Source of the DNA: a virus
Taxonomy: Duplodnaviria > Heunggongvirae > Uroviricota > Caudoviricetes
Reading direction: 5' to 3' (one strand)
Length of the DNA stretch: 30,314 bases
Virus record (IMG/VR): IMGVR_UViG_2675903650_000004
Span: 1-30,314 of that record
In this document: positions 3,398 through 26,509 of the stretch, in pieces
Numbering within the stretch: position 1 is the stretch's first letter
Layout: each line of letters opens with the position of its first letter
The notes under the pieces: generated by a model
What the model saw: the letters and a program-made list of their open reading frames with translations, nothing else
Database searches by the model: none
Told to the model about the DNA's origin: nothing
Translations under genes and position numbers: made by a program

Positions 3398-3812
3398 AGA
3401 AACCACCGTTTACTGTGCATAAAGACCCACCTTAGTTGGTGAGTCCATCATACACAATTAATACATATATGGTTTAATTGAAATCCCCAAAAACATTCTG
3501 AATAGGTGAGGTGTTTTCTGGCTCCATAGCTATGACGTGGCTTTTGATGCCTAACTTTATAAGGTGCCACGACAATGTGATAGGTACATAGGATTCAGTT
3601 ACCAATGCAAAGCTTTGTGTGTCTCAGTTTTGTCTCATGCCAACCCAGTAGAATCAATCTACTTAATCTCTCTGCAGTGAATATTTTGTTTGCACGCAAT
3701 TGCACATGATGAACTGGCGCTTATGATAATTTCTGACGGTGATCTGATGGGAGTGAAAGTGCGGCTATCTGATGATACAATGCTCTTCAAAATAAACAGT
3801 TAGGTGATTTTT

Positions 3813-4856
3813 ATGTTGGTCAAAGATGCGCTAAAAAGGGATAACAATAACCTTGACTTAATACGTATTTTTTGTGCAATTTCTGTAATATTTGCCCATT
3901 CATATTATCTTGCAAATTCTGATGGAGCCCAGGAGCCGGTTCAGTCTGTTTTCACATTTACATATACTGGTTCCATTGCTGTAAAAATATTTTTCTTTAT
4001 TAGCGGAATGCTTGTAACTAATAGTTTATTAACAACGCGAAACATACCACACTTTATTTCATCTAGATTTTTTAGAATATTCCCCGCATTCATTTTTGTT
4101 TTATTATTCGCGACATTCATTGTTGGACCATTACTTACAACGCATTCAATGACATCTTATTTAAAAGATACGCTGACGTACAGCTATCTATTTAAAAGCT
4201 CATATTTGGATATGCAATTTTTTCTTCCTGGTGTTTTTGAGGAAAATATATATAAAAGCTCAGTTAATGGTTCTTTATGGACAATACCATATGAAGTTGC
4301 ATCTTATGTCGTGCTCCTAGCATGCTACATGATAACTCAGAGCAGAGGAAGAATAATACCTAGCATCATATGCTTATCAATAATAGCGCTTCCAGTATTG
4401 GGATGGAACAAATTAATTTTTATAAATAACGATAATGCAGATGTGTTTTTAATGGCTCCATGCTTTGCTCTTGGCGCATTGTATGCTATAAACAAGGACA
4501 AAATATACATTTCACTACATGCACCAATAGGATTTGCAATATTATATAATTTTGTGTCAGAACCAACACTCAAGCATATGCTTTTTTATTTTTGCGCATG
4601 TACATTTTTCGTATATTTATCAACAACAAAAATAATAAAATCAATAAGAATAAAACATGATGTATCATATGGCGTTTACTTGTGGGGCTTTTTAATACAG
4701 CAGATAACATTCAGGTTATTACCTGATATAAATCTGTACTTAAATCAAGTTTTATGCATAGCACTATCACTTATTGCTGGACTGATATCATTTATTGCGA
4801 TAGAAAAACCAGCAATGGATATTGGGAAAAAGATATCAAACAAATTCAGATATTAG
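3813..4856 (+). CDS. acyltransferase family 3 membrane protein (O-antigen O-acetyltransferase-like, Oac/OafA type)
   Basis: ORF 3804..4856; ATG 3813 with RBS AGGTGA 5 nt upstream; about 10 TM helices; N-terminal NNxxDxxRxxxAxxVxxxH motif of Acyl_transf_3; very AT-rich codon usage unlike neighbours. Confidence 0.85.
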   Translation: MLVKDALKRDNNNLDLIRIFCAISVIFAHSYYLANSDGAQEPVQSVFTFTYTGSIAVKIFFFISGMLVTNSLLTTRNIPHFISSRFFRIFPAFIFVLLFATFIVGPLLTTHSMTSYLKDTLTYSYLFKSSYLDMQFFLPGVFEENIYKSSVNGSLWTIPYEVASYVVLLACYMITQSRGRIIPSIICLSIIALPVLGWNKLIFINNDNADVFLMAPCFALGALYAINKDKIYISLHAPIGFAILYNFVSEPTLKHMLFYFCACTFFVYLSTTKIIKSIRIKHDVSYGVYLWGFLIQQITFRLLPDINLYLNQVLCIALSLIAGLISFIAIEKPAMDIGKKISNKFRY

Positions 4857-4859
4857 ATA

Positions 4860-4886
4860 AAAAGGGGCTTTCAGCCCCTTTTTTTA
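4860..4886. terminator. bidirectional intrinsic terminator between convergent acyltransferase and tailspike genes
   Basis: Stem AGGGGCT / AGCCCCT with 3-nt loop, A-run upstream and T-run downstream (coordinates approximate). Confidence 0.7.
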
Positions 4887-6986
4887 CGTGGTAGTTGCGG
4901 ATACCTTCCATTCACCAGTTGATACGTATGTCCACTTCCACGGTCCGGTAGAAACCGGACCAAGCAATTCCCACTTGGTGCCAAACGGGAAATTAGTTGT
5001 ATCTCCCGTGGGTGGTGATACTGATAGAACCGTTATATATCCTGACTCAAGTCTGCATAATGCAGTCCATGATGAGTTTCCGGTTATACTATAGGTGCCG
5101 CCTGAATCAACCTTGTTGATCCAGCTCTGCCCACTCCCCCATCTAATAGAATCAGTGGTGTTGTCGGGAATTACCGCACCATTAAAATTTGCAGTTGCAT
5201 CATTAAGATATATGTATTTGCTAGATGAGACTCCAGAGTAACCAGAAAAATGAGATGAAACCAATGAGATGAAACACGATTCCAGAGATACAGCTTCAAC
5301 TCCTCCATCATGATGATTAACCCCTCTAAATGCAGTTACGTTAATTCGACTACCATTTATATCAAATATTTTACCAGTGCCTTCTTCGCTTCCGCATCCA
5401 GATAGATTTACTCCAGTACAATCTTTAAATTTATAGCCAGTACCATTAACGAAGTCAGCAGCCAAACAAGTCAGGCTGCTATATGTAATGTTATTAAAAT
5501 CATATGCAACACCTGAACATGTTTTCACATAAATATTGTTTAAATTATATGTGGTTCCACCTGCTTCGATTTTAACTCCAGTAACGACATCCTGAATAGT
5601 AATGTTTTCCCATGTCTGCAACCAGCTATCACTAGTGCGATAACCGGTTTTCACCCTATGAATATACAGGTCCTGAAGGCGCACATTGTAACTGATAGCG
5701 CTATATATCCCGTAATCACAAGGATTGGGCGCAGTATTTAGAATACTCAATCCAATTATTCTGGTGCTTCTTGTTTGTTTCCCGCTTAAATCACCTGATG
5801 TGTCACTATCCATATCTACCGCAACAATAAAGTCTTTGGAGAAGCTGTGTGGTACACCCTGCCACATGCGATCCGGAACGGTTTTAATATCGTTACCTGT
5901 TTTAATTAATCCACAGGAATCCATACCGCACCCCTCCAGCGTGACACGTGGAGGCACGATAGCGCCATACTTAATATCGTAAAATCCATTGAGTCTGAGC
6001 GTACCTCCTTCATATGGAAGGCATGCAGTCAGGCGTTCAAAGGCTTCACTGTTTTGCTCAGCCGTACATGATGTCATCATGCCACCGTTCTCTACCGGAA
6101 TATCGATGTGGCTTCCAGCTCTCTTCCATCGCTTACCGCCGGGGGTAACAAAAATATTCACACCATCGTCAGCTTCAGAACTGTCAAACGACATGAACAC
6201 CCCACCTCCAAGACCGGGGGTATCGCTATAATAACCTCTGACAATAATTTGCTGGTTTACTGACGAAGGTTCAGTATTTCTTAATGTGGCCACATCAGGG
6301 CAGGAACCGATATTTTTAAACCCATCGGTGGCAGCAAGCTGCAACATGACATCAGTAGCGCTCCCAGATTCCGGGAGAACCATGATTGGGTCTCCTGAAT
6401 CATCCATTGCAACAATCTTATTCTTACGTTGCTCAACGCCGGGCAAAGTTGATATCGGTTCGGGAGTTCGTAGCGTTCTGCTCAGGTTTGTTTCTGCAAG
6501 CCCGTCAACATAATTTTTCGTTGCTGCATCTTGCGGCCTAGATGGGTCACGAAGATTACGAATATAGTTATTCATCGCGTCGTAATAATTAGCCACGAAC
6601 GACGGCTTTCGTAGCGCCAGACTGAACCAATTTCGAACCTGCTGGATCAGCATCGTTAGCTTATCAAAAGCGTTCTCATGCACTTCTGCAAAGAACTTAC
6701 CCTGATTACGCAAATCAGTTTCCTGCGTAACCGGTAGCTCTCGATATATAGAAATCAGATAACCGTTAGCCAACACCTTCGACAGAATTACATTACCACC
6801 GTTATATCCTCCCGCCCCGGTAACTGTGTAATCAGTATCAAGAGCAAGAACAGTGATATTTTCATCAAGGTCAACCACTTGTACTACCAGATCAGATTTC
6901 TGGAAAATCCTGAAGGTATACGGAAATGATGTCGTAACACCGTTACCTGTGTATTCGTTGTGGTCAACTTCGGTTGAGACCGTCAT
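4884..6986 (-). CDS. tailspike / tail fibre with T7 gp17-like N-terminal anchor and beta-helix-like receptor-binding body
   Basis: 700 aa; N-terminal about 150 aa match the conserved podovirus tail-fibre anchor pattern (YTGNGVTTSFPYTF...DYTV) as remembered for T7 gp17; remainder rich in G/S/T/N beta-strand repeats typical of polysaccharide-binding or depolymerase tailspikes. Confidence 0.85.
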   Translation of the reverse strand: MTVSTEVDHNEYTGNGVTTSFPYTFRIFQKSDLVVQVVDLDENITVLALDTDYTVTGAGGYNGGNVILSKVLANGYLISIYRELPVTQETDLRNQGKFFAEVHENAFDKLTMLIQQVRNWFSLALRKPSFVANYYDAMNNYIRNLRDPSRPQDAATKNYVDGLAETNLSRTLRTPEPISTLPGVEQRKNKIVAMDDSGDPIMVLPESGSATDVMLQLAATDGFKNIGSCPDVATLRNTEPSSVNQQIIVRGYYSDTPGLGGGVFMSFDSSEADDGVNIFVTPGGKRWKRAGSHIDIPVENGGMMTSCTAEQNSEAFERLTACLPYEGGTLRLNGFYDIKYGAIVPPRVTLEGCGMDSCGLIKTGNDIKTVPDRMWQGVPHSFSKDFIVAVDMDSDTSGDLSGKQTRSTRIIGLSILNTAPNPCDYGIYSAISYNVRLQDLYIHRVKTGYRTSDSWLQTWENITIQDVVTGVKIEAGGTTYNLNNIYVKTCSGVAYDFNNITYSSLTCLAADFVNGTGYKFKDCTGVNLSGCGSEEGTGKIFDINGSRINVTAFRGVNHHDGGVEAVSLESCFISLVSSHFSGYSGVSSSKYIYLNDATANFNGAVIPDNTTDSIRWGSGQSWINKVDSGGTYSITGNSSWTALCRLESGYITVLSVSPPTGDTTNFPFGTKWELLGPVSTGPWKWTYVSTGEWKVSATTT

Positions 6987-7090
6987 GCTAAATCTCCAGA
7001 TAGTCGCAGCACCCGTTGCGCCGCATATCTGGCTATTTTATTACCCAACGAACCATATATGGATAGAAACATCATCAATACACACAGATA

Positions 7091-7105
7091 TTACCTTTCA
7101 GGTGA
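7091..7105. promoter_or_regulatory. operator-like palindrome TTACC-N5-GGTGA (site a), about 105 nt upstream of tailspike start
   Basis: ATTACCTTTCAGGTGA; 14/15 identical to site d at 26096; lies in the divergent region between tailspike and antirepressor module. Confidence 0.4.
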
Positions 7106-7138
7106 TTTGCAAAACGTGCTGGATAGCAAACAAATTAT

Positions 7139-7162
7139 TTGATACTGTATATTTGTACAGTT
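7139..7162 (+). promoter_or_regulatory. LexA (SOS) box overlapping a putative promoter
   Basis: TACTGTATATTTGTACAGTT = CTGT-N8-ACAG with AT-rich spacer (LexA consensus); TTGATA -35-like hexamer immediately upstream; 20 nt before the RBS (GGAG) of ORF 7182. Confidence 0.65.
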
Positions 7163-7181
7163 ATTGCATGGAGAAGATAAG

Positions 7182-7439
7182 ATGCAGCAGTATCACTATC
7201 CACTGGAAGACGGATTTACCGAAAGGATTCACACGCCGGGAGGCGTCAGATTACTGGTGGAGGGATCGCTCTTGATGAAATTACTCCGGGATCTCGATAA
7301 GGATGGATTTAATGTCGATGGCCCACTTGCCGAACTGACTGCACTGATTAACTACGTCACCAGCTCACAGATGTCTATGCAGGATCTGCAAACACATCTC
7401 GACTATTGTGCCGAACAATTACGAAAACAAACCAGATAA
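7182..7439 (+). CDS. small protein paralogous to the C-terminal domain of the downstream antirepressor (candidate SOS-induced antirepressor)
   Basis: ORF 7164..7439 (TTG) with ATG at 7182 and GGAG RBS; residues GGVRLLVEGSLLMKLLRDLDKDGFNVDGPLAELTALINYV...DLQTHLDYCAEQL align by eye with the C-terminus of ORF 7755..8465. Confidence 0.6.
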   Translation: MQQYHYPLEDGFTERIHTPGGVRLLVEGSLLMKLLRDLDKDGFNVDGPLAELTALINYVTSSQMSMQDLQTHLDYCAEQLRKQTR

Positions 7440-7442
7440 GGT

Positions 7443-7485
7443 TTGCAATTACCAAGTGGAGTGCTTATATTTACCTTTGAGGTAA
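7443..7485 (+). promoter_or_regulatory. promoter (TTGCAA-17-TATATT) with overlapping operator TTACCTTTGAGGTAA (site b)
   Basis: Sigma70-like hexamers with 17-nt spacer; 15-bp palindrome begins at last base of the -10. Confidence 0.5.
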
Positions 7486-7598
7486 ATTTACATCGCACTC
7501 CTCTTGTGCCATAGTAATCGGGTACTGGCAAAATCCAGTGCCGGGATTGGCGTCCCGAGTTACTAAGTGGCGCATACCACGCCAGACGTGGTTTTTTT
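7486..7598 (+). ncRNA. candidate structured leader or small RNA ending at an intrinsic terminator upstream of ant
   Basis: No ORF with RBS; several local hairpins (ACTGG/CCAGT, CGGGA/TCCCG); terminator ACCACG-CCAGA-CGTGGT followed by T7 at about 7576..7598. Confidence 0.3.
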
Positions 7599-7754
7599 AT
7601 GCGTTAAGCACAGCCATATCCGAATTATGGTGGGCTGGGCAGGGGTCCGAAAGGACGCCGGTACCACTTAGGCCGGTACGCCAACCTTGTCCAGTTCACC
7701 ACCAGTAATTGGCGTTGCGGTGGTGATTAAAATCACTAAGTGGAGATAACCACC

Positions 7755-8465
7755 ATGGCTAATGCTCAAACTGCCATCTTCAAATTTGAATCTGTTAACC
7801 CTATCCGTTCCATCATTATCGATGGCCAACCATGGTTTGTAGCCCAAGACGTTTGTAGTGCGCTGCGTATCCAAAACGTCACCCAATCACTTGAAAAACT
7901 GGATGATGATGAAAGGTCTATGTTCAACATAGGGCATGAACATCGTGCAATTTTTGACAGCCGAGTAAAAGAGATCAACATCATCTCCGAGTCAGGCCTC
8001 TACACACTGATCCTCCGCTGCCGCGATGCGGTGACACCAGGCACTATCCCCTACCGCTTTCGTAAATGGGTTACAGGTGAGGTTCTTCCTCAGATCCGCC
8101 GCACCGGAAGTTACATTAAAAACTCGCTCCCGCAGGAAGAACGCATAAAGATGGTTGCCGACCAGGTAGCCAACGCCACGGCGTCAGCAGTAATACAGGC
8201 AATGAAGATAGAGAACAAAACCTACAGTGCCCCACTGAAGCCCGGCTACCGCAGCCTGATTCACTCGCCGTCTGGTGTTCTCGGCCTGACGGAGAACTCA
8301 CTGCTGATGAATCTGCTGAACCAGTTACAGGAAGACGGGCATGACGTATCGGGCGCGGCGGCGGAACTGACCACCATGTTCTGCTACATCGTCGGTGTGA
8401 GTAAATGCCTGCGTGATATCCAGACCCACGCGGAATACATCAACGACAAGGCAGGATTCTTCTGA
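7755..8465 (+). CDS. phage antirepressor (Bro-N / Ant N-terminal domain plus C-terminal domain)
   Basis: ORF 7740..8465 (GTG); ATG 7755 with GGAG 9 nt upstream; Bro-N-type signature FKFESVNPIRSIIIDGQPWFVAQDVCSALRI. Confidence 0.85.
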   Translation: MANAQTAIFKFESVNPIRSIIIDGQPWFVAQDVCSALRIQNVTQSLEKLDDDERSMFNIGHEHRAIFDSRVKEINIISESGLYTLILRCRDAVTPGTIPYRFRKWVTGEVLPQIRRTGSYIKNSLPQEERIKMVADQVANATASAVIQAMKIENKTYSAPLKPGYRSLIHSPSGVLGLTENSLLMNLLNQLQEDGHDVSGAAAELTTMFCYIVGVSKCLRDIQTHAEYINDKAGFF

Positions 8466-8509
8466 CGGGCGGTGGCACATGGATGTGCTTTTAAATAATT
8501 CTGTACAGA

Positions 8510-8552
8510 TTGCAGACTGTGGGTGAATAGCGTACTATTACCTCAAGGGTAA
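8510..8552 (+). promoter_or_regulatory. promoter (TTGCAG-17-TACTAT) with overlapping operator TTACCTCAAGGGTAA (site c)
   Basis: Same architecture as site b: -35, 17-nt spacer, -10, then 15-bp TTACC-N5-GGTAA palindrome. Confidence 0.5.
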
Positions 8553-8612
8553 ACGGATTGGTTTCATTTTTATTAATCCGTGTAATGAACTTATGAGATA
8601 TGAGGTAATGTC

Positions 8613-8792
8613 ATGCGAAACGAAAAATTGCAGATGCGTAGAGCGCAAGCTGCCGCAAGACGTTCTTTCAATGGAAGCGTAGAGTACGTAAAAGTTACTA
8701 TGACAAAAGATCACGCAAGTCGCGTATCCCGCGCTTTCTTTGATTCTCGTAACAATAAGGAAAATTATGAGTTCGTCTGCGTCGCAGAATGA
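8613..8792 (+). CDS. hypothetical 59-aa basic protein (candidate antitoxin or regulator)
   Basis: Not in ORF track (below length cut-off); ATG 8613 with GAGG 7 nt upstream; translation MRNEKLQMRRAQAAARRSF...; 3' end overlaps start of ORF 8767 by 26 nt. Confidence 0.35.
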   Translation: MRNEKLQMRRAQAAARRSFNGSVEYVKVTMTKDHASRVSRAFFDSRNNKENYEFVCVAE

Positions 8793-9312
8793 TAAAAATC
8801 AAATTGTCAGATATAAGGGTCGAGTATTGCATACGCAAAATTTCTCGGCCCTTTGTGCATCTGATCTTGAGCTGAAGAAAGTATCTGATGCCTTTACCCA
8901 GTATTGGAAAACGGGATACCATCCATCTCTTGGTAAAGATGCTGCATTTGCTCGTCCGACAGAAATGCTTAAACTAAATGTCAGGCATACTCATGTCGAT
9001 AACCAAGACTATATTCCAGAAGATAGTGATAAAAAACACACTGGTAAAAAATCATCTTGGGATGCATGGAAAAATATAGCGTCTGTACAAGTAAAATGCA
9101 TACCAACAAGTGATTGCTTTTTAGTTTATTCGGTAAATCACAATCGTGATGCGCTGGTTATGTTTTTTGTTGACGCAGATGCTCACAACATAACTGAGCA
9201 AGAAGAGTTTAAAGAGGCAGCAATCACTATCAGTTATCAATTCTTTGAGAAAACAAAAACAGAACCAATGCCTTTAGAAGAAGATCTTTTTTCTGATAAA
9301 TGGAAGGAATAG
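8767..9312 (+). CDS. hypothetical protein with YafO-like toxin motif (candidate toxin or abortive-infection effector)
   Basis: ORF 8740..9312 (TTG); ATG 8767 with AAGGA RBS; central G[KR]DA...RP...H.H.. and LVY...D.D.H pattern resembles YafO-family toxins as recalled from memory; AT-rich; own promoter/operator upstream and terminator downstream. Confidence 0.7.
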   Translation: MSSSASQNDKNQIVRYKGRVLHTQNFSALCASDLELKKVSDAFTQYWKTGYHPSLGKDAAFARPTEMLKLNVRHTHVDNQDYIPEDSDKKHTGKKSSWDAWKNIASVQVKCIPTSDCFLVYSVNHNRDALVMFFVDADAHNITEQEEFKEAAITISYQFFEKTKTEPMPLEEDLFSDKWKE

Positions 9313-9332
9313 CCCGCGCCGCGGGCTTTTTT
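9311..9332 (+). terminator. intrinsic terminator
   Basis: GC stem GCCCGC / GCGGGC with 3-nt loop then TTTTTT, immediately after stop of ORF 8767..9312. Confidence 0.75.
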
Positions 9333-9404
9333 GTGGACGAAACAAAAGTCAGTGCTACACTCATTGACGCCACATCGAGGTGGCTTATAGATGGAAATTT
9401 CACA

Positions 9405-9566
9405 ATGAAAAAAGCATTTGCTGCACTGTTCGTTTTGTTGTCTCTGGTAGCTTCAACTCAGGCCTTTGCCGGTCGTTGTCAGCACGACAGCGATACTGCC
9501 GCTGACGGCTCCCGCTGCGGTGGGCGTTCTGCGGATTCCCGCCCGGGCGGCGGTGGCATTCGTTAA
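9405..9566 (+). CDS. signal-peptide mini-ORF (53 aa; small exported peptide or remnant of a truncated secreted-protein gene)
   Basis: Internal ATG of ORF 9300..9566; classic Sec signal MKKAFAALFVLLSLVASTQAFA then a GC-rich 31-codon tail with two Cys; weak RBS; possible promoter TTGACG at about 9364. Confidence 0.35.
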   Translation: MKKAFAALFVLLSLVASTQAFAGRCQHDSDTAADGSRCGGRSADSRPGGGGIR

Positions 9567-9589
9567 AAACAAGGCCGCGAAAGCGGCCT

Positions 9590-9601
9590 GTGACATGTCA
9601 C
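9590..9601. repeat. perfect 12-bp palindrome GTGACATGTCAC, copy 1 of 3
   Basis: Identical 12-mer also at 27084..27095 and 29349..29360; all three at 3' ends of transcription units next to hairpins. Confidence 0.8.
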
Positions 9602-9604
9602 GAC

Positions 9605-10018
9605 TTATAAAGATGACTGATATTTTACAACTCTGTTCATGGCATCTTTTTTCACCGAGCTGATATCAGTTCTTATTTTGGCTTCGTCATTACTGCTTAT
9701 CATGCTATTAATTTTTTGCACTGACATGCCGTTTCTTTCAGCCATTGCACATACAGCAGCATCGTATGAAGAACTCGCTGCGATGGATATCACCTTGTTA
9801 CACTCAAACACAGCACCTTCAGCAATATCAGATGCCGATGAGGCTGGCTTGGTATAAGTCTTGACGTAGTGATCAATACAACTATCCTTCGCCGTCTTGG
9901 CAAGAGAAAAATCCATTTTAACTTTGTCGCAATATGCCTTATCAACACCGTCATAAACATCATAGGATGTCGAGCAAGCGGATATCAAAAATACCGATAA
10001 CAGCAATAATTCCTTCAT
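9605..10018 (-). CDS. lipoprotein (moron at distal end of the ejection-protein operon)
   Basis: 137 aa; signal peptide with lipobox ISAC; AAGGAA RBS; AT-rich relative to upstream structural genes; Cys-rich periplasmic domain. Confidence 0.8.
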   Translation of the reverse strand: MKELLLLSVFLISACSTSYDVYDGVDKAYCDKVKMDFSLAKTAKDSCIDHYVKTYTKPASSASDIAEGAVFECNKVISIAASSSYDAAVCAMAERNGMSVQKINSMISSNDEAKIRTDISSVKKDAMNRVVKYQSSL

Positions 10019-10027
10019 TGTTGTTCC

Positions 10028-12502: not shown

Positions 12503-12507
12503 TTAAT

Positions 12508-17365: not shown

Positions 17366-17829
17366 TATTTTCTCTCCATGTGAAATCTGTGGAAATTAAG
17401 ACCAAGAGCACCATAAGGCGCGGCTTCTTCAAGCCTGAATCCAAGCCAGTGCAGCCATGCTTTGGCAACATGGTTTCGCTCGTCGACGTAGTTTTCCAGG
17501 CGCGGATAAACTGCCAGCATCTGCTGCAATACAGGGCGGCAGTGGCGCAGAAATGTCTTCTGATATTTTTCAATACGGCTGGTTCCGACCAGCCAGGGCG
17601 TACCATTGCCACCAATCATTGACGCCGGTGATACACCAAACATGGTTACCAGTTCTCTGTTCGCAAACCCTGACCAGGCCATAGTCGCAGTGCGCAGACC
17701 AACACGTAGCGCATCTTCGGTAGTCATCAGCGATACCGCATACAGTTCGTCAATATCAGCCTGACGAACATCCGGCAAAATCATCTGAAGATGCTCTTCG
17801 GTAGCGGGAATAATTCGAACATCGATCAT
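17365..17829 (-). CDS. hypothetical virion-associated protein
   Basis: 154 aa, translationally coupled between nozzle-like and core protein genes. Confidence 0.6.
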   Translation of the reverse strand: MIDVRIIPATEEHLQMILPDVRQADIDELYAVSLMTTEDALRVGLRTATMAWSGFANRELVTMFGVSPASMIGGNGTPWLVGTSRIEKYQKTFLRHCRPVLQQMLAVYPRLENYVDERNHVAKAWLHWLGFRLEEAAPYGALGLNFHRFHMERK

Positions 17830-20300: not shown

Positions 20301-20905
20301 CAGGACAACCTCGCAATGGTAAACTCATCAACCGGTGGCTGAGGTTCCTGTGATTCATTCTGGCTATGCGAGCCAGCACTAAGAATCTCGCGATTGTACA
20401 TATTGAGGGCAAACGTACCGAGGTCTGCATTCCCAGTCAGCGCCATGTTAATAGCTGCCGCAAGACGCCAGGCCAACGCCTCCATAAAAATGGCATCAAA
20501 CATGTTCACATCTGAAACGCGAGAGACATACTTGAGCCATGCCTGCGGCTGGTCTGTGTAGATCAATTTTCCTGTTCCGTTGGTGTCTGCACCAACTTCG
20601 TACTGAACGCGCATTGCTGCTGTTGGATTGCGTACACCAGGAAGCATAATTTCAGTAATGCGCAGACAATCGGACGGGTACTGGTACGCATATTCCCAGT
20701 CAGGCGGTGGATTGCTCGTATCTGCAAGCGCCACGCGTTTGGTAGCAAAGTTCCAGTCAAAATCAGAAAGCACAGCATCACGGCAGGCCTCAAAGTGCAG
20801 CGAACATTCCCCCGCTTCCTTGCTGGCTTCCGTCAGGCTGTTAATGCTGCGGCTGTTGCCAATATTGGACAGCGCACGATTGCAGATCTCTACTACAGAG
20901 GCCAT
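20300..20905 (-). CDS. tail tubular protein A-like / adaptor (T7 gp11-like)
   Basis: 201 aa immediately upstream of nozzle gene, stop/start overlaps; N-terminus MASVVEICNRALSNIGNSRSINSL resembles gp11-type adaptors by pattern. Confidence 0.6.
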   Translation of the reverse strand: MASVVEICNRALSNIGNSRSINSLTEASKEAGECSLHFEACRDAVLSDFDWNFATKRVALADTSNPPPDWEYAYQYPSDCLRITEIMLPGVRNPTAAMRVQYEVGADTNGTGKLIYTDQPQAWLKYVSRVSDVNMFDAIFMEALAWRLAAAINMALTGNADLGTFALNMYNREILSAGSHSQNESQEPQPPVDEFTIARLS

Positions 20906-21228
20906 TACTCACCCCCATTGCCGTACAGAGTTTCAGCCGCTGATTTTTCTACATCACCGGAAACAGGAGCGATTGCCATATCAGTGATCTGCAGATCGGC
21001 GCTGCGATTAACACCATCGTCAGTTTCTCTGGCAGACAGGCCTCGAATAACAGCCTTTGCAGTTATCATCACTTCTGTTCCGACGCCCTGAGGTTGCGCC
21101 TTCAGCTTATTCAATGTGTCGTTATTCAGCGTGATGCACAGCCCCCACGGGTATTCATCGCGAGTTCTGGTTTCTCCGCTCTCATCCTGGTAGCTGTCAG
21201 TGCCGGTTTTGAGGTTTACGAGTTCCAT
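20905..21228 (-). CDS. hypothetical head/tail structural protein
   Basis: ORF 20905..21234; ATG at 21228 (MELVNLK); in late operon. Confidence 0.55.
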   Translation of the reverse strand: MELVNLKTGTDSYQDESGETRTRDEYPWGLCITLNNDTLNKLKAQPQGVGTEVMITAKAVIRGLSARETDDGVNRSADLQITDMAIAPVSGDVEKSAAETLYGNGGE

Positions 21229-21278
21229 ATACACTCCTGCAATAAAGGGGCCGAAGCCCCTTGTCTGATTCGCGAGGC

Positions 21279-21614
21279 TTACACGCCCAGTTCTTTACGC
21301 TTATCTGCGATCTTCTCGCGGAGCGTTTCGGCTTTGGCGTTATGGTGTGGCTTCTCGTTAAAGAGCAATTCGTACTCTTCACGGAGCTTATCCAGTTCAC
21401 CATCATCTGACACATCGTTGATGATTTTGGTGCTGGTTGCTGCCATTGACACCTTTCCTGCAACTTTTGCTTTTGCCTGTCTGGCTGCATCGTTAACAGG
21501 TTCCAGTGCGCTACCAGGCTCACCTTCGTATTCGATTTCTGCCCCCTCCGGCCACAGAGTGTTATGGATATGAGAGAGGCGCAGAACGCGGTATCTTGGT
21601 TTCTCACCTGACAT
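21279..21614 (-). CDS. hypothetical structural protein
   Basis: ORF 21279..21623; ATG 21614 with AAGGTGA RBS. Confidence 0.55.
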   Translation of the reverse strand: MSGEKPRYRVLRLSHIHNTLWPEGAEIEYEGEPGSALEPVNDAARQAKAKVAGKVSMAATSTKIINDVSDDGELDKLREEYELLFNEKPHHNAKAETLREKIADKRKELGV

Positions 21615-21624
21615 CAATATCACC

Positions 21625-22062
21625 TTAACCAGTTACTTTTGAGCGGATCGGATACGGCGTATTGGCATCAACATCAAGACTGATACCCGCAGTGAATTCG
21701 CCAGCCGTTAGTGGGCCAGTTGCGACGGAGTAGTTAACACGCAGATATCGCTGAACACCGGCAGGCACCTTTGCAGAAACAACTCGTTTACCTGCTGTCA
21801 GGGCGGTCTTTGCCAGTGCGCCACTATCATAAATAGTGGTCCATGAGCTGTTATTCTCACTCGTCTGCAACTGGATGTTTACAGTTGCATCACCGCTTGC
21901 CGCGGCGGCTGTGTTAACCAGCGCCCAAAACTCAAGCGGGTAACCTACGCCGATATCACGACGTTTTCCGTCAATTGGACCGAGATCGATTACGTCAGTA
22001 GAAGCCGCGGTATTCGTAACCGCCTGAGCTTCGGAGAACATCAACAGTTTGTCGGTGATCAT
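21625..22062 (-). CDS. putative capsid decoration / cement protein
   Basis: 145 aa, Ala/Thr/Gly-rich beta-type composition, directly downstream of major capsid gene. Confidence 0.55.
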   Translation of the reverse strand: MITDKLLMFSEAQAVTNTAASTDVIDLGPIDGKRRDIGVGYPLEFWALVNTAAAASGDATVNIQLQTSENNSSWTTIYDSGALAKTALTAGKRVVSAKVPAGVQRYLRVNYSVATGPLTAGEFTAGISLDVDANTPYPIRSKVTG

Positions 22063-22113
22063 CTTCTTTCTCCATTAGTGGGTCTGTTACGACCCACAGG
22101 TTAATAACAGGCG

Positions 22114-23100
22114 TTACACCACGCGGGCTTCTGTTTCCAGAAGCGCATCAGTTTCACGGATTGGTACACCACGGAATGAAGTCCACCACTCGCCTTCAGT
22201 CTCTTTTACGCTGATAGCCAGAGATGTTTTCTCCAGAGATTGCAGATCAAGAGCCTGGCCTACAGTGCGGTTCATGTAGAACACCGGGCGACCCATGCCA
22301 CGGTTTGGAATGCGATGCAGTGCTTTAACCATCAACTTCGCAATATTTGCGGCAGAGGAAGGTTCTGAAAGATTGCTGACATCGATGTTTGCAATGCGAA
22401 CAACATAACGCCAGTCACGCAGAGCAAGTCCGTTGTCCCATTTGTAATGGGTACGGTAGCCTTCGTACTTGCCGCCATTAACATCTTCCAGTGTCACCTG
22501 GCCTTTATCTTCCATCTGGATGCCAGCCTTCTGCCCTTTCGGGAAGATGCCATGCACGGTGTTTTCGCCCCACACCACTAACCAGATTGAGGTGTTATCT
22601 GTACCCGTGCCACCAGCATCAATGATGTTCTGAGCATTACCCGCAGACAGGCTGGAATAGCGGGAGGACAGTCCCATAAACTGCTGAGGGTTAACGCTGG
22701 AATCACCATAAAACAACGTCTGCGCCATCTGCTGATTCATCGCTTCAATAAATGCGCGGTCTTCAGACAGGCGGAATTCGGCGGTATTACCGTTCAGATC
22801 AGCCAGTGACTTATCGACTTCAGCATAGGTTTCCAGCATTCCAACGGAATCGGTGACCTGCACTGTGGTTGATTTGCTTGGCTGTACGCCATAGTTCAGC
22901 AAACGCCAGGTGGCTGAAGGTAAACCAGAACGAATGGTGGTTCGGTGTCCGGTAGGAAGGTTCCCTTCGACAAAAGGCATATCCTGAAGGATCGGGTTAG
23001 TTTGACCGAGAAGCTCGATAATCTTATCGACTTTCCCGTTTGGATCGACGCGCTTACCCCAGTCAGCCAGCGTTAGCGCAGTTAAGCCTTTAACAGCCAT
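22114..23100 (-). CDS. major capsid protein
   Basis: ORF 22114..23106; ATG 23100 with GAGAGG RBS 8 nt upstream; about 330 aa, downstream of scaffold gene. Confidence 0.85.
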   Translation of the reverse strand: MAVKGLTALTLADWGKRVDPNGKVDKIIELLGQTNPILQDMPFVEGNLPTGHRTTIRSGLPSATWRLLNYGVQPSKSTTVQVTDSVGMLETYAEVDKSLADLNGNTAEFRLSEDRAFIEAMNQQMAQTLFYGDSSVNPQQFMGLSSRYSSLSAGNAQNIIDAGGTGTDNTSIWLVVWGENTVHGIFPKGQKAGIQMEDKGQVTLEDVNGGKYEGYRTHYKWDNGLALRDWRYVVRIANIDVSNLSEPSSAANIAKLMVKALHRIPNRGMGRPVFYMNRTVGQALDLQSLEKTSLAISVKETEGEWWTSFRGVPIRETDALLETEARVV

Positions 23101-23114
23101 TGTCATTTCCTCTC

Positions 23115-23810
23115 TTATTTGCCATAGAGCACTTCGGCCGCACTACGCTGGCCTTCATTACCACCGGTGACCATGCCATCTTCAGACATCGCCTTTCCGA
23201 TTTTCACGAACGTTTTGACCAGATCAGGGTGATTACCCAGCCCGGTGGTGTTCAGATATTCTTTGAGCTCAGGTGTCCCGAACTGGTCAAGCGCACGCTG
23301 TGCGGCGCTAAGGTTAGAAATCAACTTGTCGCCACCGATTTCTTTGTCAGCTTTTACATCCGCAGCCCACTGCTCGGTTGTTTTCTGCCAGGCTTCTGCC
23401 TGGCGCTGCTGAACACCTGCCAGAATCTTCGGATAAGCATCAACCAGCTTTTGCGCTTGCTCGTTGGTCAGGTTAAGTTCTCGCGCCACCGGCTCGAATT
23501 CCTTCAACGCTTCTGTATCCAGCTCTACGCCTTCGGCAGCCTGAAACTCGTACTTCTCAGGCGCACCCTCTGGTTTATTGCCGTCCTTTTTTTCATCCTG
23601 CTTATCGTTTTCAGGCTTTTTGTCATCAGCAGGTTTATCGCCATCAGCAACAGGTTGTGGCTTATCACCTTCCTGTTGTGATGGATCACCAACTGGAGCA
23701 GGGTTATCACCTGCAGGCGCTGACGGTTCTGACGCAGCCGGAGCTGCTCCACCATCGACTGGTTGCTCATTGCAAAGACGGCGATACAGCAAACGCTCAA
23801 ATAAATTCAT
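23115..23810 (-). CDS. scaffolding protein
   Basis: ORF 23115..23816; acidic, Pro/Ala/Asp/Lys-rich low-complexity N-half and helical C-half; between portal and capsid genes. Confidence 0.75.
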   Translation of the reverse strand: MNLFERLLYRRLCNEQPVDGGAAPAASEPSAPAGDNPAPVGDPSQQEGDKPQPVADGDKPADDKKPENDKQDEKKDGNKPEGAPEKYEFQAAEGVELDTEALKEFEPVARELNLTNEQAQKLVDAYPKILAGVQQRQAEAWQKTTEQWAADVKADKEIGGDKLISNLSAAQRALDQFGTPELKEYLNTTGLGNHPDLVKTFVKIGKAMSEDGMVTGGNEGQRSAAEVLYGK

Positions 23811-23812
23811 GA

Positions 23813-24109
23813 TCACTCCTGTTCACTGGCCTCTTTGGCCATCTTCAAATACTGTTCAGGGCAATGCGCCATAACGCGCTGAAACAGTTCCAGCGCCAGA
23901 TTGCGTTGCCCCTCATTAAATGCCATTGCCATAGCGTCCATCGGTGAGATAGCGGAAAACACACGGCCTTTCTCCAGCACCGACCAGACAACGCGACGCC
24001 CCTGTTCACTGCTCATGACAAAGCGAATGTCATCAATTTCACGCTGCGCCATGTCACGTTGCTTACGGGCGTTTTCTTCTTTCAGTTGATCGTCTTCGTA
24101 ATCTGTCAT
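23813..24109 (-). CDS. hypothetical protein between portal and scaffold genes
   Basis: 98 aa, acidic; 4-nt overlaps on both sides. Confidence 0.6.
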   Translation of the reverse strand: MTDYEDDQLKEENARKQRDMAQREIDDIRFVMSSEQGRRVVWSVLEKGRVFSAISPMDAMAMAFNEGQRNLALELFQRVMAHCPEQYLKMAKEASEQE

Positions 24110-25470
24110 TGTGATTGCCCACCCTGACCACTAACTGCATTCGCCATAGCTGACAAAACACTCGGATCCGAAGTTTTAGCTTCGCTTAGCGTCTTGGCAC
24201 CCTGTGCCGCCGCCATCCCCATCGCCATCATTTGTTGCTGCTGTTGCTGCTGTGCCCGTTGCTGGCGAGCCTGCTCAACCTGTTCCTGCGGAACAATGAC
24301 GGTTGGAGACACTCCGGACATATCAGCGAATGCATCGATCGCCTGATCAACGTTGAGTTTGTCGAGAGCTTCTGGTTTCGCTTGCGCAAGTTGACCAATG
24401 AAGTTAACCGTGGACGCCAGACTGGACAGGCCGATAGACTTCTGAGCCTGAGCCATGACGGAAATGTATTCGACCTTCAGGGGCATGCCTTCCATCGCGT
24501 CAGGCGGTGGCGGCAACATGTTTTTACGCACCATCATCGAGAAAGCGCGGTCAATGAGAGGATTAAGACATTCGTCGTTCAGACGCTCCAGAACCGGCCC
24601 CAACATCAGAAGTTTTTCTTCTTTCATTTCGATCACCGCTTCAACAGGCATCGAGCGGGTATTGATGTTCTGCAACATCATGAACAGATCGACAAAGTAG
24701 GCGCTGTTAATGATTTGCCGAGTGTCCTGAATGTCTGCTACCAGATCTGCTGTACTGGGGTTAACCAGATAAGCAGGCCTGAAGCCATCCTGACCAGTAA
24801 TCTGATCGATATACGTGATGTCGCCAGGAAGAAGGGAGGCGCGCTGATTCTTGAGGGAAGTCGGAGCAACCATCGGCGGATTGGTGGCTTTATCAATCAA
24901 CTGCGACTTGCGCTTCTGGAGAAGCTGCAATGCCTTAACAGGTCCAAGCGCCAGCATACCCGGGCATGATGATCCATAAACATCTTCGCCGTTAACTTCC
25001 CAGCGCGGAGCCATAATTGGAAACTCATCGAATCCTGACTCACGCAACAACTTGTCGTTATCGCCACCAACCTCGTAATAAACCGATTTGAATGGCTTGT
25101 TCTTGCTATCCAGCTTCGATGTATCGCGGTCAATGTTCGGGTAAACCGAATGCATCACTTCAATCCACTTCTCGTAGGTACCGCTTTCCCACATGCTTTT
25201 TACGGATTCGCTGACGTTATTTAGCCCGAACTCCTGAACAAGCTGACGAACAGTCATAGAGAACTTGCGAAAACAGGTGTCCACACTGCCACGAGGTGAG
25301 TTAGCCAGGTAGTAACTGCCTATCGGGAATGGCATTGTGCGAATGATGTCCTCGTCATCCTCCAGTACCGCCATTGCACCGGTGCTGTATGTGCCGAGGC
25401 TTCCGTATAACTGCGGCAGCGACTGATAGAGATTCGACTTATTGAACATATCGTTCATGCGGTTCTGCAC
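24106..25470 (-). CDS. portal protein, C-terminal 454-aa segment (frame differs from N-terminal segment)
   Basis: Gln-rich C-terminus ...QQRAQQQQQQQMMAMGMAAAQG resembles T7 gp8-type portal tails; begins with GTG immediately after an in-frame stop. Confidence 0.8.
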   Translation of the reverse strand: MQNRMNDMFNKSNLYQSLPQLYGSLGTYSTGAMAVLEDDEDIIRTMPFPIGSYYLANSPRGSVDTCFRKFSMTVRQLVQEFGLNNVSESVKSMWESGTYEKWIEVMHSVYPNIDRDTSKLDSKNKPFKSVYYEVGGDNDKLLRESGFDEFPIMAPRWEVNGEDVYGSSCPGMLALGPVKALQLLQKRKSQLIDKATNPPMVAPTSLKNQRASLLPGDITYIDQITGQDGFRPAYLVNPSTADLVADIQDTRQIINSAYFVDLFMMLQNINTRSMPVEAVIEMKEEKLLMLGPVLERLNDECLNPLIDRAFSMMVRKNMLPPPPDAMEGMPLKVEYISVMAQAQKSIGLSSLASTVNFIGQLAQAKPEALDKLNVDQAIDAFADMSGVSPTVIVPQEQVEQARQQRAQQQQQQQMMAMGMAAAQGAKTLSEAKTSDPSVLSAMANAVSGQGGQSQ

Positions 25471-25784
25471 CCCTCAAGCCACAACTTAACAGGGCCATAA
25501 TCCATCATTTCAGGATCTGGCGTAGCCAGGCGAAACCACGGACGCGCGGGGCTTGTGATGCCTGACATCATGCCGCTGGCGAGAGTGCGCGCCGCCATAG
25601 TCCCGGTCGAATCAATAATGCGTGTATTGCGTCGATCGTTACGGTTGACCTCAGAAGTCAGAAAGCGGGAACCACGCGGGTTGATGTAATCACTCAACTC
25701 GCGCCAGTGCGGCTCGAACGACTGACGCTCGCTTTCAAGTTGTGCGAACTGTTTGTTCAATCGCTCTTTAGTTGTTTCCGCCAT
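25455..25784 (-). CDS. portal protein, N-terminal 109-aa segment
   Basis: N-terminus ...KERLNKQFAQLESERQSFEPHW...ARTLASGMMSGITSPARPWFRL matches podovirus portal N-terminal pattern; ends in the -1 frame relative to the 24106..25470 ORF at a GGGG run. Confidence 0.75.
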   Translation of the reverse strand: MAETTKERLNKQFAQLESERQSFEPHWRELSDYINPRGSRFLTSEVNRNDRRNTRIIDSTGTMAARTLASGMMSGITSPARPWFRLATPDPEMMDYGPVKLWLEGCRTA

Positions 25785-25798
25785 TTCAATGACTCCGG

Positions 25799-26005
25799 TT
25801 ACTGACCAAGCAGCGTTTTACCGCTGGTATTAGCGGTTGATGTGTCGCCCTGAGAACCGGTAAGCAGCGTAGAACTACGACCAGCAGCAGCGCGACGGCG
25901 ACGTGTTTCTTCGTCGCGGGCATCAACAACGGCGGCATCCTGCTCCTGTGGTGCTGCCTGAACTTCTGGTGTTGCAGGCACTGATGGTGAGCTACCCATG
26001 CACAT
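25799..26005 (-). CDS. hypothetical 68-aa protein upstream of portal
   Basis: ATG 26005 with GGAG RBS; RBS region CGGAGTCATTGA is identical to that of the portal gene. Confidence 0.5.
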   Translation of the reverse strand: MCMGSSPSVPATPEVQAAPQEQDAAVVDARDEETRRRRAAAGRSSTLLTGSQGDTSTANTSGKTLLGQ

Positions 26006-26432
26006 ATCAATGACTCCGTACGCAATTAAATTATTACCAATTTAACCACATATGATTTATTTATCGTAGATAGTTGACATTTAACGCACGAATTATTACC
26101 TTTCAGGTAAGCAAAGAGTTCATTCCGGTTATTAACCTGACTGGCTTGTCGTTAAATTGAACAGGTGGAGTGAGCTTTTATTTTGAGCAGTACGGCGTAT
26201 GGCACATGCGCCGATAGCGGTCTGGATACGTTTAAGGGGCACCCTCCCTTGCTCGAGCAAACGAACCAGGTAGCCGGAATGTGCAAGTCGAGCGGTTTTA
26301 TTCCGCGCACGGGGATTCACCATCCCGGCGATTCGGTGTGACGCCTCGGAAGAGACGAGGGTACAACGATGAGAGCATTTATGGAGCCGCGACAAAGTGT
26401 GGCGCCTTAACAGGCTAAGTGCTCTCAGCGTT

Positions 26433-26509
26433 GTGGCATTAGCTCAGTTGGACAGAGCAACCGCCTTCTAAGCGGTTGGTCGCAGGTTCGAATCCTGCAT
26501 GCCACGCCA
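26433..26509 (+). tRNA. tRNA-Arg (anticodon UCU)
   Basis: Cloverleaf read by eye: acceptor GTGGCAT/ATGCCAC, D-arm GCTC-AGTTGGAC-AGAGC, anticodon stem ACCGC/GCGGT with loop CTTCTAA, T-arm GCAGG-TTCGAAT-CCTGC, 3' discriminator G + CCA. Confidence 0.85.

What the first reader, a model, noticed from the sequence alone, without database searches (positions are those of the whole stretch)
3407..26055. Shared AACCAyATATG motif upstream of three separate minus-strand late transcription units
The motif occurs about 40-67 nt upstream of the first start codon of the lysis cassette (about 3463..3473), the tailspike gene (about 7051..7062, where it is a perfect palindrome AACCATATATGG) and the small-ORF/portal operon (about 26044..26055, AACCACATATGA). 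The tailspike and portal units also carry a TTACC-N5-GGT(G/A)A element about 30-40 nt further upstream. This looks like a dedicated late-promoter or late-activator site set.
Basis: seen in the sequence. Interest (0 to 1): 0.5.

Follow-up and report, generated by a model that had tools for sequence, protein, structure and literature searches.

The report
Palindromic late-promoter box, ε15-like prophage
Three late gene blocks of this ε15/phiV10-type prophage each start behind the same conserved 14-base palindrome sitting where a promoter's -35 element should be, which most likely marks regulator-dependent late promoters, a known kind of phage control whose regulator is still unidentified here.

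Summary
AACCAYATATG occurs exactly three times (expected 0.03), upstream of the lysis cassette, the tailspike gene and the portal operon of a phiV10/ε15-like (Uetakevirus) prophage.

The true element is a 14-bp palindrome, AACCATATATGGTT (the "A box"). A 5/6 -10-like hexamer lies 7-10 nt downstream and there is no usable -35.

The A box is kept at the homologous positions in phiV10, ε15, Tyrion, Kp4865-1, BUCT554 and about 240 metagenomic relatives. In the lysis module, sequence conservation begins exactly at the box.

I read these as regulator-dependent late promoters, built like phage P1 late promoters but not homologous to them.

- TTACC-N5-GGTAA is the dispersed prophage-repressor operator. 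It is already annotated in ε15 and is optional at the lysis promoter.
- A-like boxes also occur at the antirepressor gene's 3' end and in early regions, so the box is not strictly late.
- terS has a different arrangement.

A second palindrome, GTGACATGTCAC, overlaps the stop codon of a ribbon-helix-helix/Cys-rich regulator gene and lies next to all three intrinsic terminators that bound late units. The protein that binds the A box is unresolved.

The parts
3461..3474 (-). A box of the lysis-cassette promoter. This is a variant, AACCATATATGTAT, with 2 mismatches in the promoter-proximal half.
   Evidence: Relatives have AACCATATATGGTT here.
3447..3452 (-). -10-like hexamer TATGAT of the lysis promoter. 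It lies 8 nt after the A box in this window and 7 nt after it in most relatives.
   Evidence: TATGAT in 30 of 48 distinct contexts.
3505..3519 (-). Degenerate repressor-operator remnant TCACCTATTCAGAAT upstream of the lysis A box.
   Evidence: phiV10, ε15 and Tyrion have a full operator at this position.
7051..7064 (-). A box of the tailspike promoter (ATCCATATATGGTT, 13 of 14).
   Evidence: Conserved in 57 distinct relatives.
7035..7040 (-). -10-like hexamer TAAAAT of the tailspike promoter, 10 nt after the A box (TAGAAT in most relatives).
7091..7105 (.). Repressor operator TCACCTGAAAGGTAA. It lies 26 nt upstream of the tailspike A box, in the intergenic region shared with the divergent LexA-box antirepressor gene.
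26044..26057 (-). A box of the small-ORF/portal operon promoter (AATCATATGTGGTT, 12 of 14).
   Evidence: Same centre-to-ATG distance (45 nt) in all 80 related loci; the box itself scores 11-13 of 14.
26030..26035 (-). -10-like hexamer AATAAT of the portal-operon promoter, 8 nt after the A box.
26096..26110 (.). Repressor operator TTACCTGAAAGGTAA, 38 nt upstream of the portal A box.
   Evidence: (the ε15 site 2931-2947 is annotated as repressor binding).
7430..7443 (.). Fourth A-like box (AACCTTATCTGGTT, 12 of 14). It overlaps the stop codon of the small antirepressor gene. In the + direction a sigma-70-like promoter (7443-7471) and an operator (7471-7485) follow.
   Evidence: The same box is present in phiV10 and Tyrion.
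29349..29360 (.). B box GTGACATGTCAC. It overlaps the stop codon of the p55-type regulator gene and forms the -35 of a sigma-70-like promoter (GTGACA-18-CATGAT) upstream of terS.
29290..29307 (-). Intrinsic terminator hairpin 42 nt downstream of that B box and upstream of terS.
29256..29270 (.). Repressor operator TTACCACAACGGTAA, followed by an operator-like TTACCACGGTGGTTA (29238-29252), directly before the probable true terS ATG (29238).
27084..27095 (.). B box next to the bidirectional terminator (27100-27119) that ends the terS-terL unit.
9590..9601 (.). B box immediately upstream of the terminator (9589-9572) that ends the virion-protein operon.
29360..29695 (-). p55-type regulator gene (112 aa). 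It is the last gene before terS and encodes a ribbon-helix-helix domain plus a C-terminal Cys-rich segment.

Best explanation
The motif is the core of a 14-bp palindromic protein-binding site, AACCATATATGGTT (the A box). It occupies about -33 to -20 of three promoters that lack a -35 element and drive the lysis cassette, the tailspike gene and the small-ORF/portal operon of a Uetakevirus prophage.

How it most likely works:
- A dimeric regulator, most likely phage-encoded, binds the box. (Inferred, not shown.)
- Its promoter-proximal subunit substitutes for the missing sigma-70/-35 contact. (Inferred.)
- RNA polymerase then uses the -10-like hexamer 7-10 nt downstream. (The hexamer is shown; its use is inferred.)
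- The neighbouring TTACC-N5-GGTAA element is a separate prophage-repressor operator. It sits a fixed 26, 29 or 38 nt upstream, that is 40.5-52.5 bp centre to centre, or about 4-5 helical turns. It would place these promoters additionally under lysogenic control. (Position shown; function inferred.)
- The terS-terL unit is organised differently. It has a sigma-70-like promoter overlapped by a second palindrome (GTGACATGTCAC) and followed by a terminator.

The identity of the A-box-binding protein is not established.
For: Statistics: 3 exact matches against 0.03 expected; 4 sites with at least 12 of 14 matches against 0.12 expected, all at gene boundaries.

Conservation: the box is at the homologous positions in phiV10, ε15 and Tyrion, which show 77-95% DNA identity to the window. 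It is also there in the more distant Kp4865-1 (portal and tailspike) and BUCT554 (all three).

Footprint in 48 distinct lysis-upstream contexts: 0.2-0.4 bit per position upstream, 1.63 in the box, 1.49 in the next 7 nt, 1.15 in the -10-like hexamer and 0.67 in the leader. Conservation therefore starts at the box although the upstream neighbours are unrelated.

Promoter geometry: the best -10-like hexamer lies at +7 (TATGAT, lysis), +8 (AATAAT, portal) and +10 (TAGAAT, tailspike). The best -35 match is mostly 2-3 of 6.

The canonical sigma-70 scan reports nothing at the three sites.

Terminators precede the portal and tailspike units.

Asymmetry: the promoter-proximal half (TGGTT) is more conserved than the distal half in the portal and tailspike sets; in the lysis set the two halves are about equal.

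Precedent: the 11 late promoters of P1 have a -10 plus a 9-bp inverted repeat centred at -22 that binds Lpa (PMC10695390 and PMC3152322; LPpac layout).
Against: - No transcription start sites, binding data or expression data exist for these sites.
- A protein bound at about -26 is more typical of a repressor than of an activator.
- A-like boxes also occur where no -10 follows: downstream of the cro-like gene in every genome examined.
- A-like boxes also occur inside the 17-bp spacer of early promoters that have good -35 elements (P_L and the promoter before the p45/resolvase gene in Tyrion, BUCT554 and Kp4865-1). The box is therefore not a dedicated late-promoter signal.
- The only regulator placed like a late activator (p55, just before terS) is associated with a different palindrome.
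- If transcription from the terS promoter is antiterminated, internal promoters would not be strictly needed.
- No Lpa homologue is present.
Confidence: 0.55

Rival explanations
1. The A box is an operator for a repressor, not an activator site. The three internal promoters are weak or constitutive, and they are silenced in the lysogen, or turned down early in infection, by a protein bound between the -35 and -10 positions. Candidates are the genus-specific Cro-like protein p41, or a second binding mode of the tetrameric prophage repressor bridging the upstream operator and the box.
For: - A centre near -26 is a classic repressor position.
- A-like boxes lie in the spacers of early promoters with good -35 elements, where binding should repress.
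- The operator sits at a fixed gap of 26, 29 or 38 nt upstream despite 18-42 different intervening sequences. That gives 40.5, 43.5 and 52.5 bp centre to centre, about 4-5 helical turns.
- The box and the operator share an ACC...GGT core (N6 against N5).
- p41 is a weak paralogue of the repressor's N-terminal helix-turn-helix (E = 0.004), and its putative recognition helix is invariant across the genus.
- Repressor overexpression abolishes holin and endolysin transcripts (PMC9782041), though this is also expected from indirect control.
Against: - The promoters have no -35 (2-3 of 6) and no proper extended -10, so without help they should be very weak.
- The operator is absent from 27 of 46 lysis contexts while the box is always present.
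- The central ATATAT of the box is conserved, whereas the N5 of the operator is free, which argues for different proteins.
- Repression of late genes by a Cro-type protein has no obvious logic.
Confidence: 0.25
2. The A box is a site for a conserved host protein of Enterobacteriaceae, for example a nucleoid-associated or global regulator. Its resemblance to the NrdR-box consensus (recalled from memory, not checked) is only a lead. The phage would use it to couple late expression to host physiology.
For: - The box is invariant in phages of Escherichia, Salmonella, Enterobacter and Klebsiella, whose own regulators diverge. The repressors are 42% identical between phiV10 and ε15 (PMC9782041).
- No phage protein could be tied to the box.
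Against: - Within the 'phages' collection the lysis-promoter region was found only in Uetakevirus-type records.
- No known E. coli site matches it exactly. NrdR boxes occur as phased pairs (from memory), whereas A boxes are single.
- This was not tested against host-factor motif libraries; no such tool was available.
Confidence: 0.1
3. The late region is expressed mainly by read-through or antitermination from the promoter after the p55 gene. The A boxes are functionally minor and are conserved mainly as shared junction sequences at which modules (morons, tailspike, lysis cassette) are exchanged by recombination.
For: - The A box marks the exact left boundary of the conserved lysis module.
- A promoter-plus-terminator arrangement follows the p55 gene, and B boxes lie next to the three intrinsic terminators that bound late units.
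Against: - The box is more conserved than the adjacent 5' leader, and its spacing to a -10-like hexamer is maintained in sequence families that differ in the spacer (TATTGTG-TATGAT against TATCATG-CGTAAT).
- A perfect dyad with a conserved centre is not expected of a mere homology patch.
Confidence: 0.07
4. The palindrome acts in RNA, as a hairpin, terminator or processing site in a long late transcript.
For: The ε15 record annotates putative RNase III sites in the neighbouring leaders.
Against: 51-nt RNAs around the three boxes fold no better than shuffles (z = +1.4, +1.1 and -1.2). The predicted pairs do not use the palindrome consistently, and no T-run follows.
Confidence: 0.03

Closest known systems
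Phage P1 late promoters (Lpa-dependent; 11 dispersed promoters)
   Same: - Several late promoters are dispersed through the genome.
- Each has a -10 hexamer and, in place of a -35, a short conserved inverted repeat in the spacer region (centred at -22 in P1, about -26 to -30 here).
- A regulator gene sits directly upstream of the terminase genes (lpa-LPpac-pacA in P1; p55-promoter-terS here).
   Different: - The box sequence and length differ (9 bp in P1; 14 bp AACCATATATGGTT here).
- No Lpa homologue is present (BLASTP, hhalign and tblastn all negative).
- Dependence on SspA is unknown.
- The box also occurs in early regions.
ε15 / SPC32H-type prophage repressor operators (TTACC-N5-GGTAA)
   Same: It is a 15-bp inverted repeat, clustered on both sides of the repressor gene and scattered before late units. 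The ε15 RefSeq record annotates it as repressor binding.
   Different: The A box is not this operator. It has N6 rather than N5 between ACC and GGT, a conserved ATATAT centre and different flanks.
Lambda-type Q antitermination module (Q gene, QBE and P_R', t_R')
   Same: For the terS unit only: the regulator gene is the last gene of the early-right operon. It is directly followed by a sigma-70-like promoter whose -35 overlaps the regulator-associated palindrome, and then by an intrinsic terminator.
   Different: - p55 matches no Pfam family; it was not compared directly with Q-protein sequences.
- The same palindrome also sits beside two further terminators that have no promoter.
- The three A-box units have their own -10 elements, which a single processive antiterminated transcript would not need.
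T4 middle promoters (MotA box at -30) and MerR-type spacer operators
   Same: A regulator site replaces or overlaps the -35/spacer region next to a normal -10. (General knowledge.)
   Different: - No MotA or AsiA homologue was looked for or seen.
- MerR-type promoters keep a -35 with a 19-20 bp spacer, which is absent here.

Membership tests
P1 Lpa-type late promoter | A -10 hexamer with a conserved inverted repeat in the spacer region instead of a -35 | tested here: met
   A 5/6 -10-like hexamer lies 7-10 nt after the 14-bp palindrome, and the -35 matches 2-3 of 6. The canonical scan finds no promoter. The box centre is about -26 to -30, against -22 in P1.
P1 Lpa-type late promoter | An Lpa homologue is encoded by the phage | tested here: not met
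   tblastn of P1 Lpa against the window, phiV10, ε15 and Tyrion gave nothing below E = 0.5. p55 against Lpa: BLASTP E = 0.25, hhalign probability 0.2%.
P1 Lpa-type late promoter | Box sequence like the P1 -22 box (LPpac: ATGTGACTT) | tested here: not met
   The A box (AACCATATATGGTT) is unrelated. Only the separate B box (GTGACATGTCAC) resembles the LPpac stretch GACATGTGAC.
P1 Lpa-type late promoter | Requirement for the host protein SspA | not testable with these tools
   Needs genetics or in vitro transcription.
Canonical sigma-70 promoter | A -35 hexamer (at least 4 of 6) 16-18 nt upstream of a -10 hexamer | tested here: not met
   No hit at 3461-3474, 7051-7064 or 26044-26057. The best -35 is 2-3 of 6 in most relatives.
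Uetakevirus repressor operator (TTACC-N5-GGTAA) | A 15-bp inverted repeat with a free 5-nt centre, clustered around the repressor and cro-like genes | tested here: met
It is annotated as repressor binding in ε15.
Uetakevirus repressor operator (TTACC-N5-GGTAA) | The A box conforms to the operator pattern | tested here: not met
   The A box has a 6-nt conserved ATATAT centre and AACC/GGTT arms. It is not matched by the operator pattern.
Lambda Q-type antitermination module (considered for the terS unit and the B box) | Regulator gene immediately upstream of a promoter with a regulator site, followed by a terminator | tested here: met
   p55 stop codon / B box / GTGACA-18-CATGAT / hairpin plus T-run at 29307-29290.
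Lambda Q-type antitermination module (considered for the terS unit and the B box) | Regulator belongs to a known Q protein family | tested here: inconclusive
   No Pfam hit at E <= 1. The fold is ribbon-helix-helix plus a Cys-rich tail, unlike the known Q folds as I recall them. No direct comparison with Q sequences was run.
MatP/matS-like recognition (considered for p55 and the B box) | A ribbon-helix-helix protein recognising GTGAC...GTCAC | tested here: inconclusive
   [not shown]

The most novel reading that the evidence does not exclude
Uetakeviruses run a two-palindrome late programme that has not been described.

1. The A box would be the operator of the genus-specific Cro-like protein p41, a paralogue of the repressor's DNA-binding domain. 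p41 would act as a position-dependent switch. It would repress early promoters where the box abuts the -10, and activate three late promoters lacking a -35 where the box lies 7-10 nt further upstream.

2. The ribbon-helix-helix/Cys-rich protein p55 would bind matS-like B boxes placed directly beside intrinsic terminators. There it would act as a DNA-site-tethered, terminator-local antiterminator. A weak sequence resemblance of its C-terminal half to the RNA-polymerase secondary-channel binder TraR (E = 0.04) is only a lead.
Probability: 0.15. Interest if true: 0.7.

Novelty: new variant of a known kind. Interest (0 to 1): 0.45.

Why it matters
ε15, phiV10 and SPC32H are reference podoviruses. 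They are used for structural work, serotype conversion studies, repressor-antirepressor studies and reporter phages for E. coli O157, yet I found no description of how their late genes are switched on. Neither motif string appears in the searchable literature. The ε15 record annotates repressor, IHF, RNase III and integrase sites but no promoters.

A defined 14-bp box with a fixed -10 geometry gives three small, directly testable promoters. It also gives a handle for finding the regulator by pull-down or one-hybrid screening.

Practical uses:
- It shows where to place payload genes in phiV10-type reporter phages.
- It shows which sequences must travel with the tailspike or lysis modules when they are swapped.

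Tried and rejected
- **Orientation-specific 11-mer.** Rejected. The strands differ among the three hits, and relatives show a 14-bp dyad.
- **TTACC element as part of a late-activator site.** Rejected in favour of the repressor operator.
- **p55 as the A-box binder.** Unlikely. In ε15-likes, phiKO2 and a Yersinia P2-like phage its gene is physically linked to a different palindrome. Vibrio phage K233, which has a p55 homologue, carries that palindrome at three other sites and has no A box.
- **P1 Lpa homology.** None.
- **p42 (first gene after the early A box) as the binder.** Unlikely. Its homologues are spread over many unrelated, including virulent, phages.
- **Phyletic profiling to find the binder.** Uninformative. 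The lysis-promoter region and p41 are both confined to the same genus.
- **RNA-structure role.** Rejected.
- **B box next to more distant p55 homologues (28-35% identity).** Not found, apart from one near-match. The link therefore holds only for the closer subfamily.
- **TraR/DksA-type zinc finger in p55.** Only a weak profile hit (E = 0.04). Neither the Pfam scans of 53 members nor Foldseek supported it.
- **Papers not held in the library.** Kropinski 2007 (ε15 genome), Kim & Ryu 2013 and Kim 2016 (SPC32H Rep/Ant), and Lobocka 2004 (P1 genome). Earlier descriptions of the box in those papers cannot be excluded.
Full report
**What the window is.** About 76% of bases 1-25000 match Escherichia phage phiV10 and its relatives at 95-96% identity, and ε15 and Tyrion at 77-81%. 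It is therefore a Uetakevirus prophage with its late genes on the minus strand.
- By comparison with the annotated phiV10 and ε15 records, the order on the minus strand is: a 112-aa 'transcriptional regulator' (p55 type, 29695-29360), terS-terL, a plus-strand insert (a phage Sf6 gp66-like ORF and tRNA-Arg), the small-ORF/portal/head/tail/internal-protein operon, a plus-strand antirepressor module, the tailspike, a plus-strand O-acetyltransferase, and the lysis cassette.
- Bases 1 to about 1470 lie outside the phage match.

**The observation.** AACCAYATATG occurs exactly three times, at the stated places, against 0.03 expected.
- The hits are on different strands (one minus, two plus), although all three genes are on the minus strand.
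- Reading the sequence and the relatives shows why: the element is a dyad, AACCATATATGGTT.
- In the late-gene orientation the window copies are AACCATATATGTAT (3474-3461), ATCCATATATGGTT (7064-7051) and AATCATATGTGGTT (26057-26044).
- Four sites in the window reach 12 of 14 matches (expected 0.12). The fourth (7430-7443) overlaps the stop codon of the small antirepressor gene.

**Conservation.** I fetched 80 IMG/VR loci for each of the three downstream genes.
- The best match to the dyad lies at a constant distance from the start codon: 45 nt from box centre to ATG in all 80 portal loci, 71 or 73 nt in 75 of 80 tailspike loci, and 65-70 nt in the lysis loci.
- The lysis set is the most telling, because the gene upstream of the cassette differs from phage to phage. 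Information content is 0.2-0.4 bit per position upstream, 1.63 in the box, 1.49 in the next seven bases, 1.15 in the following hexamer and 0.67 in the leader. Conservation begins at the box, and the box is better kept than the 5' leader.
- The box is at the same three positions in phiV10, ε15 and Tyrion. It is at the portal and tailspike positions in Klebsiella phage Kp4865-1 and at all three in Enterobacter phage BUCT554.

**Promoter anatomy.**
- A -10-like hexamer with A at position 2 and T at position 6 follows at +7 in lysis (TATGAT), +8 in portal (AATAAT) and +10 in tailspike (TAGAAT; TAAAAT in this window). Each matches TATAAT in 5 of 6 positions.
- The best -35 at 16-18 nt is mostly 2-3 of 6.
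- The consensus scan finds no sigma-70 promoter at any of the three sites.
- The spacing is kept in sequence families whose spacers differ (TATTGTG-TATGAT against TATCATG-CGTAAT).
- The promoter-proximal half-site is the better conserved one in the portal and tailspike sets.
- Terminators precede the portal and tailspike units: 27100-27119 after terL and 9589-9572 after the virion operon (also annotated in phiV10).
- This is the architecture of a promoter that needs a protein bound at about -33 to -20.
- RNA folding gives no support for an RNA role.

**The second element.** TTACC-N5-GGTRA is over-represented: 6 in the window against 0.11 expected, and 11 in phiV10 against 0.06.
- In phiV10, ε15 and Tyrion it forms pairs on both sides of the repressor gene, overlapping the -10/+1 or the spacer of the early promoters.
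- The ε15 RefSeq record already annotates such sites as 'repressor' binding sites, including the ones before gp3 and before the tailspike. It is therefore the prophage-repressor operator, not part of a late-activator site.
- Where present, it lies at a fixed gap from the A box: 38 nt (portal), 26 nt (tailspike) and 29 nt (lysis). That is 40.5-52.5 bp centre to centre, about 4-5 helical turns, despite many different intervening sequences.
- It is absent from 27 of 46 distinct lysis contexts, so it is an accessory control element.
- The copy at the tailspike shares its intergenic region with the divergent small antirepressor gene, which carries a LexA box (7143-7162; PHROG assignments).

**The box is not purely 'late'.** In every complete genome examined there is an A box (11-13 of 14) just downstream of the cro-like gene and its terminator. 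It is preceded by an operator-like sequence and followed by GATC plus a T-run, with no -10.
- In Tyrion, BUCT554 and Kp4865-1, A-like boxes (11-13 of 14) fill the 17-bp spacer of early promoters that have good -35 elements. Examples are TTGACT-tca-AACCACATAAGGAT-AATTAT at P_L and TTGATT-tcg-AACCGTATATGGAT-TTTAAT before the resolvase gene. There the box abuts the -10.
- The same protein could therefore repress early promoters and activate late ones, depending on position. This is inference only.

**Who binds the box.** I could not settle this.
- p55 is placed like a late regulator: it is the last gene of the early-right operon, directly before terS. The same placement holds in Vibrio siphovirus K233, where it lies just before the holin/terminase block. 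In a Yersinia P2-like phage it follows the replication gene A.
- However, p55 is linked to a different palindrome (next section).
- p42 has homologues in many unrelated phages.
- The cro-like p41 is confined to the genus. It is a weak paralogue of the repressor's N-terminal helix-turn-helix. Its putative recognition helix, AGTTSHYIQ.HLT, is invariant even at 58% overall identity. This is compatible with an invariant target such as the A box, whose ACC-N6-GGT core resembles the operator's ACC-N5-GGT, but it proves nothing.
- PerC-like and AlpA-like genes exist in the early-left operon, outside this window.

**A second palindrome.** GTGACATGTCAC (the B box) occurs three times in the window:
- 29349-29360, overlapping the p55 stop codon. 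It forms the -35 of a sigma-70-like promoter (GTGACA-18-CATGAT) that runs into a terminator 42 nt later.
- 27084-27095, beside the terminator after terL.
- 9590-9601, touching the terminator that ends the virion operon.

It is identical at these three positions in ε15 and Tyrion. phiV10 has it at the two terminator sites and a one-base variant at the p55 stop. BUCT554 has it at all three positions, with one centre base changed at the p55 stop, and Kp4865-1 at two of them. GTGAC-NN-GTCAC also overlaps the stop codon of the p55 homologues of phiKO2 and the Yersinia phage, and it occurs three times in K233, once just before terS.

**Comparison with known systems.** The three A-box promoters work like P1 late promoters: dispersed, with a -10 plus a spacer-region inverted repeat bound by a dedicated factor. 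They fail membership on the regulator and on the box sequence. The TTACC element is a member of the known Uetakevirus operator class. I found neither palindrome string in the searchable literature.

**Verdict.** The motif is real, conserved and almost certainly a protein-binding promoter element of three late units. Calling it 'late-activator site' is the best reading (about 0.55), but 'operator' (about 0.25) remains open. It is a new variant of a known kind and of moderate interest. The B box/p55 arrangement seen in passing is the more unusual feature.

Noticed in passing
window 29349-29360, 27084-27095, 9590-9601; also L001-L003, L248, L249, L244-L246: A second exact palindrome, GTGACATGTCAC, overlaps the stop codon of the p55 regulator gene and lies directly beside the three intrinsic terminators that bound late units. 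GTGAC-NN-GTCAC likewise overlaps the stop codon of the p55 homologues in phiKO2 and a Yersinia P2-like phage, and it occurs three times in Vibrio phage K233.
   Followed up: partly
[not shown]
   Followed up: partly
window 7143-7162 and 7164-7439 (+); 7740-8465 (+): A near-consensus LexA box (TACTGTATATTTGTACAGTT) sits just before a small ORF homologous to the C-terminal domain of Ant-type antirepressors. A full-length Ant-type gene (241 aa) carrying the same C-terminal domain follows downstream. The two lie divergent from the tailspike gene.
   Followed up: partly
window 29238-29270 and the terS start: Two tandem operator-type repeats (TTACCACAACGGTAA, then TTACCACGGTGGTTA) end at an ATG at 29238. 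The TTG start of the mechanical ORF listing (29316, matching the phiV10 annotation) would place them inside terS. The ε15 annotation suggests that the shorter terS (about 199 aa) is correct.
   Followed up: partly
window 3461-3474: This prophage's lysis A box is an unusual variant (AACCATATATGTAT, with a spacer to the -10 that is 1 nt longer). Only 2 of 48 distinct related contexts share it. The upstream operator is degenerate as well, so this may be a weakened lysis promoter.
   Followed up: no
L001 33132, L002 33749, L003 35385/34215/37308, L248 7657/9569, L249 13522/14687: A-like boxes occur in the early regions of related phages: after the cro-like gene's terminator (followed by GATC and a T-run) and inside the 17-bp spacers of two early promoters, directly abutting their -10 elements.
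   Followed up: partly
window 26433-26509 (+) and 26708-27079 (+): A tRNA-Arg(TCT) gene and a phage Sf6 gp66-like ORF lie on the opposite strand, between terL and the portal operon. The tRNA overlaps the 3' end of a small ORF (26439-26690) that the mechanical ORF listing calls on the minus strand.
   Followed up: no
L247 2970-2994 (phage P1, between lpa and pacA): The P1 late promoter LPpac reads TTGACATGTGACTTTCGTTACCCT. Its GACATGTGAC stretch matches the window's B box GACATGTCAC in 9 of 10 positions, and it sits in the same place (regulator gene, box, terminase genes). The two regulators show no detectable homology.
   Followed up: partly
window 1-1470: The phage match begins at about 1473 and no integrase lies on this side, so bases 1 to about 1470 are presumably host flank next to the attachment site.
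   Followed up: no
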